IMG/VR virus record: IMGVR_UViG_3300042987_001724
Reading direction: 5' to 3' (one strand)
Length of the DNA: 51,069 nt
Source of the DNA: a virus
Taxonomy: Duplodnaviria > Heunggongvirae > Uroviricota > Caudoviricetes
In this document: piece after piece, positions 12,452 through 15,317 of the stretch
Position numbering within the stretch: position 1 is the stretch's first letter
Layout: each line of letters opens with the position of its first letter
Program-made: the position numbers and the translations under genes
The notes under the pieces: generated by a model
Seen by the model: the letters and a program-made list of their open reading frames with translations, nothing else
Told to the model about the DNA's origin: nothing
Databases searched by the model: none

Positions 12452-13696
12452 ATGAACCAGCAGTTGACATCGCGAGAAATGTACGAAATCAAGTCGATCG
12501 GGTACACCCCGCCACCGGGGCATCGCGGTTCGATGATGGACATGGGGCTACCGGGCTTCACGCTGCGACAGGTGGAGCAGATGCGTCGCGATTCCCAAGT
12601 CAAACTGGGAATGGCGATCAAAACGGCTCCGCTGATGCACGTCAAATTTGAGTGTACCGGACGACCAGACATCGTTCAGTTCGTCACCGGCCAGATGAAA
12701 TCGATATGGGATGAAGCCATCACCAAGATTTCGTCAGCACTCTGGTACAAGGTCCACGCTTCGGAGCCAGTCTACCGAAAAAACCAGAGCACCGGACTGA
12801 TGGAAATCATCTCGCTGCGGGACTTCTACCCCGGAGACGTCGAATTCTTGGAGCAGTCGCAACAACTGATTGGGCTTCGAATCAGATCCTATCAGGGGTC
12901 GAGTGTCGACAATCCGAACGGCTATTTCGACCTGATGGGAATGAAGGGATTCCACTACATCCATCGGCAGGAATTCGGGGGCCGCAACGGAGTCAGCGAA
13001 CTGGAGGCCGCATATCAGCCGTGGCTCGCCAAGGTCGGACCTGACGGCGCAATGGCAGTGAGAACGATGTGGTTTTACAAAAACGCCTACGACAGCGGAA
13101 TCATCTTCCATCCCCCCGGAGTCTACGAATACAGAGCGGGCGAGAACATCGTCCAGATTCCGTATCGTGATCTTGCCCGGCAGGCTGTTGAGCGGGCAAC
13201 ATCCGGGGCGGTTTGGGCCTTCCCGCAATCCTACGACGAAAAGGGGAACCGGATGTGGGAGTTCGTCTCCCCGAAACTGAACGGCGACGGGAAATCCCTG
13301 ATTGATTACGTCGAGCAGTTGAATGTCGAAATTTTGCGCGGCATGGGAATTCCCGACGACATCATCTCACAGACCGGGGGAACCGGAAGCTACGCCGGTC
13401 GTTCGATCCCGTTCCAAGCCTTCCTGACATCACAGAACGATACAGTCCGCGCCATCTTTCAGGCGATCGAAAAGCAGATTCTTGCCAACTTGGCGATGTG
13501 GAACTTCGGAAGCCGAGATTTTGAATTTCACGATGTTCAAGTCGATCGCGACAAACTTCTGCCATCGGATCAGCCACAACCACCCGCAGGAATGGCTCCG
13601 CCGGAAATGGGCGGAGATCCGTCGCAAGATCCAAACGCGATGGCGGCGGCACAAGCCGGTCAGCCAATGCAACCCGCTCCGGCGGCTGCCGCGTAA
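12452..13696 (+). CDS. Portal protein, DUF935/Mu gp29-like
   Basis: Size and motifs (QMRRDSQVK, SELEAAYQPW, GIPDDIISQTGGTGSYA); Pro/Gln/Ala low-complexity tail. Confidence 0.65.
   Translation: MNQQLTSREMYEIKSIGYTPPPGHRGSMMDMGLPGFTLRQVEQMRRDSQVKLGMAIKTAPLMHVKFECTGRPDIVQFVTGQMKSIWDEAITKISSALWYKVHASEPVYRKNQSTGLMEIISLRDFYPGDVEFLEQSQQLIGLRIRSYQGSSVDNPNGYFDLMGMKGFHYIHRQEFGGRNGVSELEAAYQPWLAKVGPDGAMAVRTMWFYKNAYDSGIIFHPPGVYEYRAGENIVQIPYRDLARQAVERATSGAVWAFPQSYDEKGNRMWEFVSPKLNGDGKSLIDYVEQLNVEILRGMGIPDDIISQTGGTGSYAGRSIPFQAFLTSQNDTVRAIFQAIEKQILANLAMWNFGSRDFEFHDVQVDRDKLLPSDQPQPPAGMAPPEMGGDPSQDPNAMAAAQAGQPMQPAPAAAA
13674..13695 (+). repeat. Left copy of an imperfect direct repeat (portal 3' end) bounding the Cas7-like cassette
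   Basis: ccgctccggcggctgccgcgta versus ccgctccggctgcggctgccgcgta at 15182-15206. Confidence 0.7.
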
Positions 13697-13698
13697 CG

Positions 13699-13728
13699 AA
13701 AACGCCCGGATATTTCACCGGGCGTTTT
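13699..13728. terminator. Bidirectional intrinsic terminator
   Basis: AAAACGCCCGG-ATATTTCA-CCGGGCGTTTT hairpin between the convergent portal and Cas7-like cassette. Confidence 0.85.
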
Positions 13729-13731
13729 CCC

Positions 13732-13771
13732 TTGACATGGCATGACATGACTCAACACGACTCAACACGCC
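13732..13771 (-). ncRNA. Pentamer (GNY-NN) repeat array A1, putative VIPR-type guide RNA, 8 units
   Basis: Minus strand: GGC GT GTT GA GTC GT GTT GA GTC AT GTC AT GCC AT GTC AA. Confidence 0.75.
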
Positions 13772-13804
13772 CCGCGTGGACAAGTCTCGCGAAATTTCGC
13801 CCGG

Positions 13805-14362
13805 CTATGACCACTTTACATCAACAACTTCAAATCGACCGTAATACCCGTTGTTTCTTGGTCGGAACCTACCGATCCCGATAAACCTCCCAGCGTCTTC
13901 AAGATGGGCGAGAAACACGTCTTCGTTGATCACCTCATCAAGAACAAGGAAGTCTACAACGCCAGACCATGATGGAATTACCGGGAACGTCTTTAGCACC
14001 CGAGTTGTGCCACCTCGCCTGCCGTCGCTTGGAACGTGGAGAGACTCTCCTTTCACATCACTGACATTCACGCCAAGAGATAGCGGGTCGCACACTAGCA
14101 ACCCCGCCTCAAAATGTTTTGTGTAGGTAGACTTGCCTTTTCCCGGTATCTGGATCGACTTGTACTTTGCCGCCTCCGCAAGACAATTCTTAAATGACAT
14201 TGGCGGGATGAATACGACACCATTCTCATCAGCATGCAGCCGCTCTCGCCATGTCCGTTGCTCAAATTCGTCGTGCGTTTCATCGCGAGACTTCTTTGAC
14301 TGAATAAACCTCGACTGGCTGTATGGACTAATCGACTTCAACGTAGCACTGGCTGTTCTCAT
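13805..14362 (-). CDS. Stand-alone Cas7/RAMP-like protein (Vipr-like RNA-guided effector)
   Basis: RAMP hallmarks: N-terminal strand ATLKSISPY, FIPPMSFKNCLAEAA (IPGSSLKG-like), C-terminal Gly-loop GIGRFRPRNNGYYGRF; flanked by pentamer arrays; no other cas genes. Confidence 0.8.
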   Translation of the reverse strand: MRTASATLKSISPYSQSRFIQSKKSRDETHDEFEQRTWRERLHADENGVVFIPPMSFKNCLAEAAKYKSIQIPGKGKSTYTKHFEAGLLVCDPLSLGVNVSDVKGESLHVPSDGRRGGTTRVLKTFPVIPSWSGVVDFLVLDEVINEDVFLAHLEDAGRFIGIGRFRPRNNGYYGRFEVVDVKWS

Positions 14363-14385
14363 TCCGTTCCCCTAAACTGAAAACA

Positions 14386-14435
14386 TTGACACGACTCAAC
14401 CCGCCTCGCCACAACTGGCCCCGGCTTGACCCGCC
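14386..14435 (-). ncRNA. Pentamer repeat array A2, 10 units
   Basis: Minus strand: GGC GG GTC AA GCC GG GGC CA GTT GT GGC GA GGC GG GTT GA GTC GT GTC AA. Confidence 0.8.
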
Positions 14436-14465
14436 GAGCGACACACGATAAACAAACAATAAACC

Positions 14466-14525
14466 TTGACATGCTTGGCCTCGACCCGACATGACTCACC
14501 GCGACATGCCCCGACTAGACCTGAC
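14466..14525 (-). ncRNA. Pentamer repeat array A3, 12 units
   Basis: Minus strand: GTC AG GTC TA GTC GG GGC AT GTC GC GGT GA GTC AT GTC GG GTC GA GGC CA AGC AT GTC AA. Confidence 0.8.
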
Positions 14526-14529
14526 CAAA

Positions 14530-15012
14530 TCATCCCCCGAATAACTTGAGCGTCTCGCCGATTGCGAGTGGTGAATCCCCTGTCACTTTCGACTCAATTT
14601 TCTTCGATGACTTACTGGACCCAAACAGCTTGATCGCCCCTAACTGCGCCGACTTGGTCAAATGCGATTTTCGAGACTCTGGTGACAACTCATCAAACTC
14701 AATGTTTTGCAGGATCTTCATCCCCTTGCTGGCGGCACGACGCGCCTTCCCGACGAAAGACCCACCGGCATTCACAGCGCCGTCTCCATCGAGACGCTTC
14801 AAGCCCTCGCCGAAAATCACATCAAAATGAATTTTCTCTTCGACTAGAGTCTTTCGGGCTGTCGCCAAGTTGCCGCGACAAAACTCCCTTACGTCCCTTC
14901 CTAGGATTGTCGACAGTTCCGTATACGGAATGACGTCACCCGGAGACGTGTTTCTCAATCTGTTCTCAAGAATCGACGTGTCAGCCGACTTTTCTCGAAT
15001 ACCCTTGCTCAT
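14530..15012 (-). CDS. Accessory protein of the Cas7-like cassette (160 aa, possible N-terminal winged helix)
   Basis: GGAG RBS before the ATG at 15012 (MSKGIREK...); located between arrays A3 and A4. Confidence 0.75.
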   Translation of the reverse strand: MSKGIREKSADTSILENRLRNTSPGDVIPYTELSTILGRDVREFCRGNLATARKTLVEEKIHFDVIFGEGLKRLDGDGAVNAGGSFVGKARRAASKGMKILQNIEFDELSPESRKSHLTKSAQLGAIKLFGSSKSSKKIESKVTGDSPLAIGETLKLFGG

Positions 15013-15022
15013 ACAAAACTCC

Positions 15023-15082
15023 TTGACTCGAATCGCCTGAACGAGCCTCGTCATGCCCAAACGCGACGCGACACAACTCGAC
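15023..15082 (-). ncRNA. Pentamer repeat array A4, 12 units
   Basis: Minus strand: GTC GA GTT GT GTC GC GTC GC GTT TG GGC AT GAC GA GGC TC GTT CA GGC GA TTC GA GTC AA. Confidence 0.75.
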
Positions 15083-15181: not shown

Positions 15182-15206
15182 CCGCTCCGGCTGCGGCTGC
15201 CGCGTA
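15182..15206 (+). repeat. Right copy of the portal 3'-end direct repeat
   Basis: Encodes APAAAAA* like the portal end APAAAA*. Confidence 0.7.
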
Positions 15207-15317
15207 GTTGCGTCAACCTTTCGGTGTTGGTAGCTTTTTGGCGTGATCTGCGCTGCCCAGACTGCGTTAAACAATGCAGTCCCACCGAATTATTGCAGTT
15301 AAATACGGAGTGTTGAC

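What the first reader, a model, noticed from the sequence alone, without database searches (positions are those of the whole stretch)
13732..15082. Decoded guides predict gapped targets that look like codon-phase (wobble-skipping) coding sequence
Reading NN with one skipped base gives A1 GT.GA.GT.GA.AT.AT.AT.AA; A2 GG.AA.GG.CA.GT.GA.GG.GA.GT.AA; A3 AG.TA.GG.AT.GC.GA.AT.GG.GA.CA.AT.AA; A4 GA.GT.GC.GC.TG.AT.GA.TC.CA.GA.GA.AA. The terminal AA may be structural. 36 of 42 dinucleotides begin with a purine, like first codon positions. With the gap taken as the wobble base they decode to plausible peptides: V[DE]V[DE][IM][IM][IM], G[KN]G[HQ]V[DE]G[DE]V, [SR]YG[IM]A[DE][IM]G[DE][HQ][IM], [DE]VAA[CW][IM][DE]S[HQ][DE][DE]. 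Inference: such guides would tolerate synonymous escape mutations. I found no convincing match in this window by eye.
Basis: inference. Interest (0 to 1): 0.78.

Follow-up and report, generated by a model that had tools for sequence, protein, structure and literature searches.

The report
Phage VIPR guides; one target found
These four short repeat arrays are guide-RNA genes of a phage-borne VIPR system, a CRISPR-related system published in 2026; its known "pair two bases, skip the third" rule makes one guide match a gene of an unrelated rival phage perfectly, so this is a sound but ordinary new example.

Summary
The four minus-strand arrays decode exactly as written, and 36 of 42 dinucleotides start with a purine (p about 3e-6).

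The locus is a VIPR system. P0001 is a Vipr-type RAMP protein: its only solved sequence relative is SUSP1 Vipr (profile E 2.7e-9), and its fold is Cas7-like. P0002 is the conserved accessory gene.

The "one-base gap = wobble" reading and the "tolerates synonymous escape" inference are already published (bioRxiv 2026.04.26.720920; 2026.10.15.759431). This scan has also reported the same thing on other DNA several times.

New here: guide A4 matches 22/22 informative bases at a 1-nt skip in a 49-kb IMG/VR phage contig unrelated to this phage.
- About 0.005-0.009 such hits are expected by chance.
- A second allele (86% protein identity) also matches 22/22, while 4 of its 11 skipped bases differ.
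- The terminal AA does not pair and looks structural.

Guides A1-A3 gave only chance-level hits, and there is no self-target in the window.

The repeats are G-K-Y (mostly GTC), not GGY, and there is no long conserved tail.

Verdict: a new member of a known kind.

The parts
15023..15082 (-). vrRNA array A4: 12 units. NN = GA GT GC GC TG AT GA TC CA GA GA, plus cap AA. It lies just upstream of vap, and its cap GTCAAGGAG overlaps the vap ribosome-binding site.
   Evidence: Decoded. Matches a rival-phage gene 22/22 at a 1-nt skip.
14530..15012 (-). vap-like accessory gene (P0002, 160 aa), a predicted winged-helix DNA-binding protein.
   Evidence: phrog_5926, function unknown. Homologs sit next to vipr in about 60 fetched loci. 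AlphaFold model pLDDT 90. Only weak fold matches (E 0.015-0.3), all to winged-helix regulators.
14466..14525 (-). vrRNA array A3: 12 units. NN = AG TA GG AT GC GA AT GG GA CA AT, plus cap AA. It starts 4 nt after the vap stop codon.
   Evidence: Decoded. No full-length target in IMG/VR or the JGI metagenomes. The 20-base core gives only chance-level hits.
14386..14435 (-). vrRNA array A2: 10 units. NN = GG AA GG CA GT GA GG GA GT, plus cap AA. It lies 23 nt upstream of the vipr start codon.
   Evidence: Decoded. One 18/18 hit lineage, antisense to a baseplate-J gene with the skip on codon position 1; consistent with chance.
13805..14362 (-). vipr gene (P0001, 185 aa): RAMP / Cas7-like protein that would polymerise on the repeats.
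   Evidence: The only solved sequence relative is SUSP1 Vipr, 36pp_D: E 7.6e-5 for the single sequence, 2.7e-9 for a profile. AlphaFold model pLDDT 94. Foldseek top hits are Cas7/Csm3/Cmr RAMPs, E 4e-7 and weaker.
13732..13771 (-). vrRNA array A1: 8 units. NN = GT GA GT GA AT AT AT, plus cap AA. It may extend by two more units to 13781.
   Evidence: Decoded. Too short for a specific search. The extended 18-base form gave two out-of-phase hits in AT-rich contigs.
13700..13731 (.). Hairpin terminator that closes the cassette on the minus strand. It also ends the plus-strand portal gene.
   Evidence: 12-bp stem followed by UUUUCGUU; -24.7 kcal/mol, z -4.6 against 200 shuffles.
15183..15207 (+). 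Second copy of the last ~23 nt of the portal gene (first copy at 13674-13696), so a short direct repeat brackets the cassette.
   Evidence: Read from the sequence. blastn-short finds 14-nt and 10-nt exact blocks.

Best explanation
This is a phage-encoded VIPR system: vipr, vap and four vrRNA genes.

Inferred mechanism, by homology with the SUSP1 system:
- One minus-strand transcript, or several, carries the arrays.
- Vipr protomers load one per 5-nt unit. Each hides the G-K-Y triplet and presents the two variable bases.
- The presented dinucleotides pair with one DNA strand of a target, skipping every third target base.
- The bound filament blocks transcription.

Shown here by sequence analysis:
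- Guide A4 is written to match codon positions 1-2 of the most conserved C-terminal motif of a small Cys-rich early gene (P0126 family). This gene is carried by an unrelated lineage of large phages, so the system is most likely a weapon against a competing phage.
- A4 has the same sense as the target mRNA. It can therefore pair only with the template DNA strand, not with the message.
- The last unit (GTCAA, followed by GG) is a structural cap, not part of the guide.

The targets of A1-A3 are not in the collections searched.
For: Published system and rule:
- GGY/NN repeats, 1-nt skip, skip on the wobble base, and targets in rival mobile elements (bioRxiv 10.64898/2026.04.26.720920).
- Filament structure (10.64898/2026.04.26.720927).
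- Wobble-skipping blocks escape (10.64898/2026.10.15.759431).

Protein:
- P0001 matches only SUSP1 Vipr in the PDB and has a Cas7-type fold.

Arrays:
- Conserved triplets with variable NN.
- The same architecture occurs in relatives, but with entirely different NN sets. This includes a locus with the identical Vipr protein.

Target:
- A4 matches 22/22 in IMG/VR contig 3300030044_000029.
- 0 of 300 shuffles reach this score on that contig.
- It is the only match at 0.9 or above among 144 guides x 4 skip lengths.
- Chance expectation is 0.005-0.009.
- The gene is real, sense-strand and in phase 0, with chained neighbouring genes.
- The site lies in the family's most conserved motif.
- Allele L105 also matches 22/22 with 4 of 11 skip bases changed; other alleles score 19-20/22.
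- The target phages are unrelated to the window phage.

Other:
- There is no self-target.
- Across 131 guides of the clade, sense/antisense orientation scores are over-dispersed (z 4.6).
Against: - Only one of the four guides has a credible target.
- The chance estimate (about 0.01 for the two long guides together) is good but not overwhelming, and the second allele is homologous, so it is not independent.
- No expression, processing or binding data exist for this locus.
- The triplets are G-K-Y (GTC dominant) rather than the GGY that SUSP1 Vipr reads through specific contacts. In the HMMER alignment to SUSP1 Vipr, the G-loop reads GIGRFRPR here against GVGDWRPR. By my count this puts R and F where the structure paper names the contact residues D177 and W178.
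- No conserved structured 3' tail was seen.
- The hosts of this phage and of the target phages are unknown, so it is not shown that they ever meet. Their GC contents differ (54% against 48%).
Confidence: 0.85

Rival explanations
1. The locus is a VIPR system, but the A4 match is a coincidence. On this view the real targets of all four guides are unknown, or are absent from public data.
For: - 18-base sub-patterns of these codon-like guides give 0-3 chance lineages per IMG/VR scan.
- 62% of the chance mass for A4 lies in sense phase 0 anyway, so the codon phase adds little.
- A4 units 1-9 also match primase genes at 18/22.
- No other guide converges on the same phage.
Against: - The expected number of 22/22 hits is about 0.005-0.009.
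- The site sits in the most conserved motif of the target family.
- A diverged allele keeps all 22 read bases while 4 skipped bases change.
Confidence: 0.1
2. The arrays are protein-binding operators in mRNA leaders, like the triplet repeats bound by ring proteins such as TRAP. On this view the conserved triplets carry the information and the NN are mere spacers.
For: - The 5-nt period with a conserved triplet and 2-nt spacers resembles TRAP sites (my own knowledge).
- A4 and A2 lie in the leaders of vap and vipr, and the A4 cap overlaps the vap ribosome-binding site.
Against: - The neighbouring protein is a Vipr homolog, not a TRAP-like protein.
- NN sets differ completely between loci whose proteins are 83-100% identical, which mere spacers would not explain together with a 22/22 match to a foreign gene.
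- A1 and A3 do not precede genes.
Confidence: 0.03
3. The guides act as antisense RNAs on messenger RNA rather than on DNA.
For: The structure paper reports that Vipr-vrRNA can form a duplex with an RNA target strand, though with incomplete filaments.
Against: - A4 has the same sense as the target gene's mRNA, so it cannot pair with it.
- All four window guides are sense-like in composition.
Confidence: 0.02

Closest known systems
Type II VIPR of Escherichia phage SUSP1 and the Pseudomonas fulva prophage (bioRxiv 10.64898/2026.04.26.720920 and 10.64898/2026.04.26.720927)
   Same: - Phage-borne and minimal: vipr + vap + several vrRNA genes in the intergenic spaces around them.
- 5-nt repeats of a conserved triplet plus a hypervariable NN, with 8-12 units per guide.
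- A natural target read at a 1-nt skip, with the skip on the wobble base, in a gene of a rival phage.
- No self-target.
- The accessory protein is predicted to bind DNA.
   Different: - The protein is only distantly related: the alignable stretch is 64 residues with the single sequence and about 85 with the profile (E 7.6e-5 and 2.7e-9).
- The triplet is G-K-Y (GTC 19, GGC 10, GTT 7 of 42), and relatives also use GAC.
- The G-loop reads GIGRFRPR where SUSP1 has GVGDWRPR.
- There is no long conserved pseudoknotted tail, only a short cap (...AA GG). One array ends in a terminator hairpin.
- Which of the seven published types this clade belongs to could not be determined, because the type tree and logos are figures that are not held.
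Wobble-aligned vrRNA targeting of the F5 satellite recombinase and of vipr genes (bioRxiv 10.64898/2026.10.15.759431)
   Same: The guide reads the codon-determining positions of a conserved motif and skips the most variable positions. Among five alleles of the A4 site, 9 of 11 skipped positions vary against 7 of 22 read positions (my count).
   Different: The target here is a small Cys-rich early gene of unknown function in large phages. It is not a satellite recombinase, and none of the window's guides matches a vipr, vap or vrRNA of the 107 related loci held.
Class 1 CRISPR Cas7 backbone filaments (type III Csm3/Cmr4, type VII Cas7)
   Same: The fold of P0001 is the same: RRM core, G-rich loop and thumb (Foldseek E 4e-7 to 1e-4). 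Guide presentation is also periodic.
   Different: - No CRISPR array, no other cas genes and no adaptation genes.
- The period is 5 nt, with three hidden bases and two read bases, rather than 6 nt with one flipped base.

Membership tests
VIPR system | A Vipr protein: a small single-RRM RAMP with a G-rich loop and a thumb, related to SUSP1 Vipr. | tested here: met
   SUSP1 Vipr (36pp_D) is the only significant PDB sequence match to P0001 (E 7.6e-5; the next matches have E above 0.5) and the only match to its family profile at E up to 1 (E 2.7e-9). AlphaFold model pLDDT 94. The top 50 Foldseek matches listed (93 have E <= 0.001) are CRISPR RAMPs.
VIPR system | vrRNA genes next to vipr: tandem 5-nt repeats in which a conserved triplet (GGY or a related consensus) alternates with a hypervariable NN. 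| tested here: met
   Four arrays of 8-12 units flank vipr and vap. Near relatives keep the architecture but carry different NN sets, even with an identical Vipr protein. The consensus here is G-K-Y rather than GGY.
VIPR system | Targets recognised at a 1-nt skip (NN x NN x ...). | tested here: met
   Bioinformatic evidence only. A4 matches 22/22 at skip 1 and does not match at skips 0, 2 or 3. The result is inconclusive for A1-A3.
VIPR system | A conserved structured 3' tail capping each vrRNA (a pseudoknot in the SUSP1 clade). | tested here: inconclusive
   Only a short shared cap was seen (GTCAA followed by GG in 3 of 4 arrays...AA GG in relatives). The sequences after the four arrays are unrelated. 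No covariance analysis was done.
VIPR system | A vap accessory gene in the operon. | tested here: met
   P0002 homologs lie beside vipr in about 60 fetched loci. A winged-helix-like fold is suggested only weakly.
VIPR system | Carried by a virus or provirus. | tested here: met
   A Mu-type portal gene lies immediately upstream. Relatives lie on IMG/VR contigs and on 100-130-kb contigs.
VIPR system | The vrRNAs are expressed, co-purify with Vipr and silence transcription of the target. | not testable with these tools
   This needs small-RNA sequencing, pull-down and reporter assays.
TRAP-like triplet-repeat RNA operator | A ring-forming RNA-binding protein of the TRAP type is encoded nearby, and the spacers between triplets carry no information. 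| tested here: not met
   The adjacent proteins are a RAMP and a winged-helix-like protein. The 'spacers' of A4 spell a foreign gene 22/22.

The most novel reading that the evidence does not exclude
One guide, A3, is aimed at a host gene rather than at a rival phage. Without its first dinucleotide it matches 20/20 read bases, in codon phase, in two diverged ftsA genes (peptide YGMAEMGEQI). On this reading the phage would use VIPR to silence bacterial cell division. The evidence does not exclude it, but the number of hits is what chance predicts, and no ftsA gene in the collections matches all 22 bases.
Probability: 0.05. Interest if true: 0.6.

Novelty: new member of a known kind. Interest (0 to 1): 0.25.

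Why it matters
- **Rule in a distant clade.** The published VIPR decoding rule also holds in a distant Vipr clade, about 29% identical to SUSP1 Vipr over the alignable third. This clade uses G-K-Y rather than GGY repeats and is very abundant in metagenomes (more than 4000 protein clusters).
- **A concrete test pair.** The work provides a guide-target pair for bench testing: A4 against the P0126-family gene.
- **Possible relaxed triplet code.** Triplet position 2 is free in this clade (G, T or A, depending on the locus). If that proves to be a real relaxation of the protein's RNA code, it would be useful for understanding and engineering Vipr-RNA recognition.
- **Otherwise known.** The central idea of the finding is already in the literature, and this scan has reported it on other genomes.

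Tried and rejected
- **My first reading:** TRAP-like operator sites. I dropped it once P0001 proved to be a Vipr homolog.
- **Rfam and tRNA scans:** nothing.
- **Whole genome:** none is held for this window.
- **Cross-targeting among 132 guides and 1.2 Mb of related phage DNA:** no enrichment at skips 0-2.
- **Window guides against 107 VIPR loci** (to test vipr/vap/vrRNA targeting): chance level.
- **A3:**
  - 18-base sub-patterns in IMG/VR gave 0 and 3 hits, and the latter extended at chance level, 2 of 6 bases.
  - The full 22 bases in JGI metagenomes gave 0 hits.
  - The 20-base core gave 5 hits in 4 lineages: ftsA, a sugar nucleotidyltransferase and two non-coding or out-of-phase sites. 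The omitted dinucleotide matched 1, 1, 1, 0 and 0 of 2 bases.
- **A2:** 5 contigs that are one 92-99.9% identical phage lineage. The hit is antisense to a Baseplate_J gene with the skip on codon position 1, and the lineage is unrelated to the window phage or to the A4 target phages.
- **A1 extended to 18 bases:** two out-of-phase hits in contigs of 18% and 33% GC.
- **Convergence on the A4 target contig:** the other guides do not hit it.
- **Larger 131-kb relative:** could not be searched.
- **Target gene family in species genomes:** none found, so no host.
- **Window's own source sample:** not on record.
- **Composition-based codon-phase classifier:** uninformative, because pool-permuted guides give the same split.

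Full report
**What is in the sequence**

Between the portal gene (12452-13696, plus strand; Pfam Portal_Mu) and 15.2 kb lie two minus-strand genes and four arrays of 5-nt units.
- Read on the minus strand, each unit is a triplet (GTC 19, GGC 10, GTT 7, other 6) followed by two variable bases.
- Every array ends in GTCAA.
- The window holds no other such array, apart from one marginal 5-unit run.

The order on the minus strand is: A4, P0002 (14530-15012), A3, A2, P0001 (13805-14362), A1, then a strong hairpin terminator (-24.7 kcal/mol, z -4.6).

**What it is**

An earlier first-reader note on this stretch used the name 'VIPR-like'. That led me to three 2026 preprints.
- They describe Viral Interference Programmable Repeat systems. 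A small RAMP protein (Vipr) polymerises on a vrRNA made of GGY/NN repeats, hides each GGY and presents the NN.
- The NN pair with double-stranded DNA while every third target base is skipped.
- Natural targets are mostly coding sequences of rival phages and satellites, with the skipped base on the wobble position. The outcome is transcriptional silencing.
- The October 2026 paper states outright that wobble-skipping prevents escape by mutation.

**Membership**

- *Protein.* P0001 matches only 'SUSP1 Vipr protein' among all PDB sequences (E 7.6e-5; 2.7e-9 with a 25-sequence profile). Its AlphaFold model (pLDDT 94) matches Cas7-type RAMPs of type VII and type III systems (E 4e-7 and weaker).
- *Accessory gene.* P0002 homologs sit beside vipr in about 60 related loci. 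The P0002 model has only weak matches, all to winged-helix regulators. This fits the WH-like accessory proteins named in the paper.
- *Abundance and spread.* The family has 4117 clusters at E <= 1e-3. It lies on IMG/VR contigs and on 100-130-kb contigs binned into MAGs of many phyla.
- *Guide turnover.* Near relatives (83-88% identical Vipr) keep the array-vap-array-vipr-array layout but carry wholly different NN sets. One locus encodes the identical Vipr protein yet differs in two arrays. This is the hypervariability expected of programmable guides.

**Target search**

There is no self-target in the window at a 1-nt skip, as the paper reports for its systems.

Because the collection scans need exact matches, I used overlapping sub-patterns of nine dinucleotides (18 bases) in IMG/VR.

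*A4.*
- Both halves hit the same place in contig IMGVR_UViG_3300030044_000029. All 11 informative dinucleotides match, 22/22.
- The site reads GAG GTT GCC GCG TGG ATG GAA TCA CAC GAT GAG.
- It lies in a 132-aa gene (P0126) that is chained with its neighbours on the same strand.
- NN fall on codon positions 1-2 and the skip falls on position 3.
- The next dinucleotide is GT, not AA. The invariant terminal unit therefore does not pair, and related loci also end in ...AA GG.

*Controls for A4.*
- On that contig, none of 300 shuffled A4 guides reaches 22; their maximum is 18.
- On 100 kb of target-group DNA, A4 at skip 1 is the only match at 0.9 or above among 144 clade guides at skips 0-3.
- A codon-aware chance model, calibrated on the chance-like hits of six 18-base scans, predicts 0.005-0.009 full-length hits for A4 and about 0.002-0.005 for A3.
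- The codon phase adds little to this, since 62% of the chance mass is already in sense phase 0.

**The target gene**

- P0126 belongs to a small family of Cys-rich proteins (C-x3-C ... C-x-C-S-C-G-G-K-N-H-G) of unknown function.
- The A4 site lies in the family's most conserved C-terminal motif, ATASQxKWPEVxAW.
- *Allele L105.* It comes from another metagenome and is 86% identical in protein. It also matches 22/22, although 4 of its 11 skipped bases differ. Two of those changes alter the amino acid (M to I, E to D) without touching a read base.
- *Other alleles.* The commonest allele (P0130) scores 19/22, P0133 scores 20/22, and a distant one scores 15/22.
- *Variation across the five alleles.* 9 of 11 skipped positions vary, against 7 of 22 read positions.
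- *Relatedness.* The target contig and a 131-kb contig carrying P0130 share many proteins with each other. They share essentially nothing with the window phage, so the target is an unrelated phage lineage.
- *Strand.* A4 has the sense of the mRNA. It can therefore pair only with the template DNA strand, which fits DNA targeting rather than RNA targeting.

**The other guides**

- *A3.* It has no full-length match in IMG/VR or the JGI metagenomes. Its 20-base core hits four lineages, including two diverged ftsA genes and a nucleotidyltransferase. The count is near expectation, and the omitted dinucleotide extends at chance level.
- *A2.* It hits one phage lineage 18/18. The hit is antisense to a Baseplate_J gene, with the skip on codon position 1.
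- *A1.* It is too short to search specifically. Its extended form gives two out-of-phase hits.

I count all of these as unsupported.

**Family-level test of 'guides look like coding sequence'**

- Across 131 guides, the per-guide score for sense-like against antisense-like composition is over-dispersed (z 4.6, above all 2000 permutations). All four window guides lie on the sense-like side.
- A classifier of codon phase by composition gave the same answer on permuted pools, so it says nothing.
- The purine bias is not a structural requirement of the protein, since related arrays have pyrimidine-rich first positions.

**Differences from the described systems**

- The triplet is G-K-Y here. Related loci use pure GGC, GTT, or GAC on the vipr strand, so position 2 seems free in this clade.
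- The text of the first preprint names GGY, NNNGG, YNNNG and NNNNG forms. I could not see its logos.
- In the HMMER alignment to SUSP1 Vipr, the G-loop reads GIGRFRPR here against GVGDWRPR. By my count this puts R and F where the structure paper names contact residues D177 and W178.
- I saw no long conserved tail.

**Verdict**

This scan has reached the same conclusion on several other genomes. The locus is a new member of a known kind, with one newly identified guide-target pair.

Noticed in passing
window 13732-15082; loci L015, L019, L021, L017, L011, L005: Triplet position 2 is not fixed in this Vipr clade. The window uses GTC > GGC > GTT. Some relatives use only GGC, others GTT, and L017, L011 and L005 carry GAC-NN arrays on the vipr strand that end in the usual ...CGCAA GGCAA cap. 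The grammar is therefore G-N-Y, which is not one of the forms named in the text of the first VIPR preprint.
   Followed up: partly
window 15012-15032 (minus strand): The cap of array A4 (GTCAAGGAG) contains the Shine-Dalgarno sequence of vap, 8 nt before its ATG. The nearest relative, L131, has the same arrangement. Vipr loading on A4 could therefore shut off vap translation. This is untested.
   Followed up: no
window 13674-13696 and 15183-15207: The last ~23 nt of the portal gene recur just beyond the cassette as a direct repeat with a small indel. The vipr-vap-vrRNA cassette therefore looks like an insertion at the portal gene's 3' end.
   Followed up: partly
L133, L134, L135: Three metagenome contigs encode the very same Vipr protein. 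L135 carries different NN sets from the other two in two arrays, while a third array is shared with one base changed. Guides thus turn over much faster than the protein.
   Followed up: partly
L141:871-899, L142:2057-2085, L138:3151-3179: Guide A3 without its first dinucleotide matches 20/20 read bases, in codon phase, in two diverged ftsA genes (YGMAEMGEQI) and in a sugar nucleotidyltransferase gene. The number of hits is about what chance gives.
   Followed up: partly
L084:3988-4013, L087:1227-1252, L088:3326-3351: A4 units 1-9 match prim-pol primase genes (EVAAWIESQ, 18/22) in two diverged homologs that differ at 5 of the 9 skipped bases. This passes the 80% threshold used in the preprint, but by hit count it is at chance level.
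   Followed up: partly
L109-L129 (genome contigs): Close Vipr homologs (42-70% identity) sit on 100-130-kb contigs binned into MAGs of very different phyla (Gammaproteobacteria, Chloroflexota, Cyanobacteria, Planctomycetota, even Nanoarchaeia). These are probably whole phage genomes of the window's size class that were mis-binned, so they do not indicate the host.
   Followed up: no
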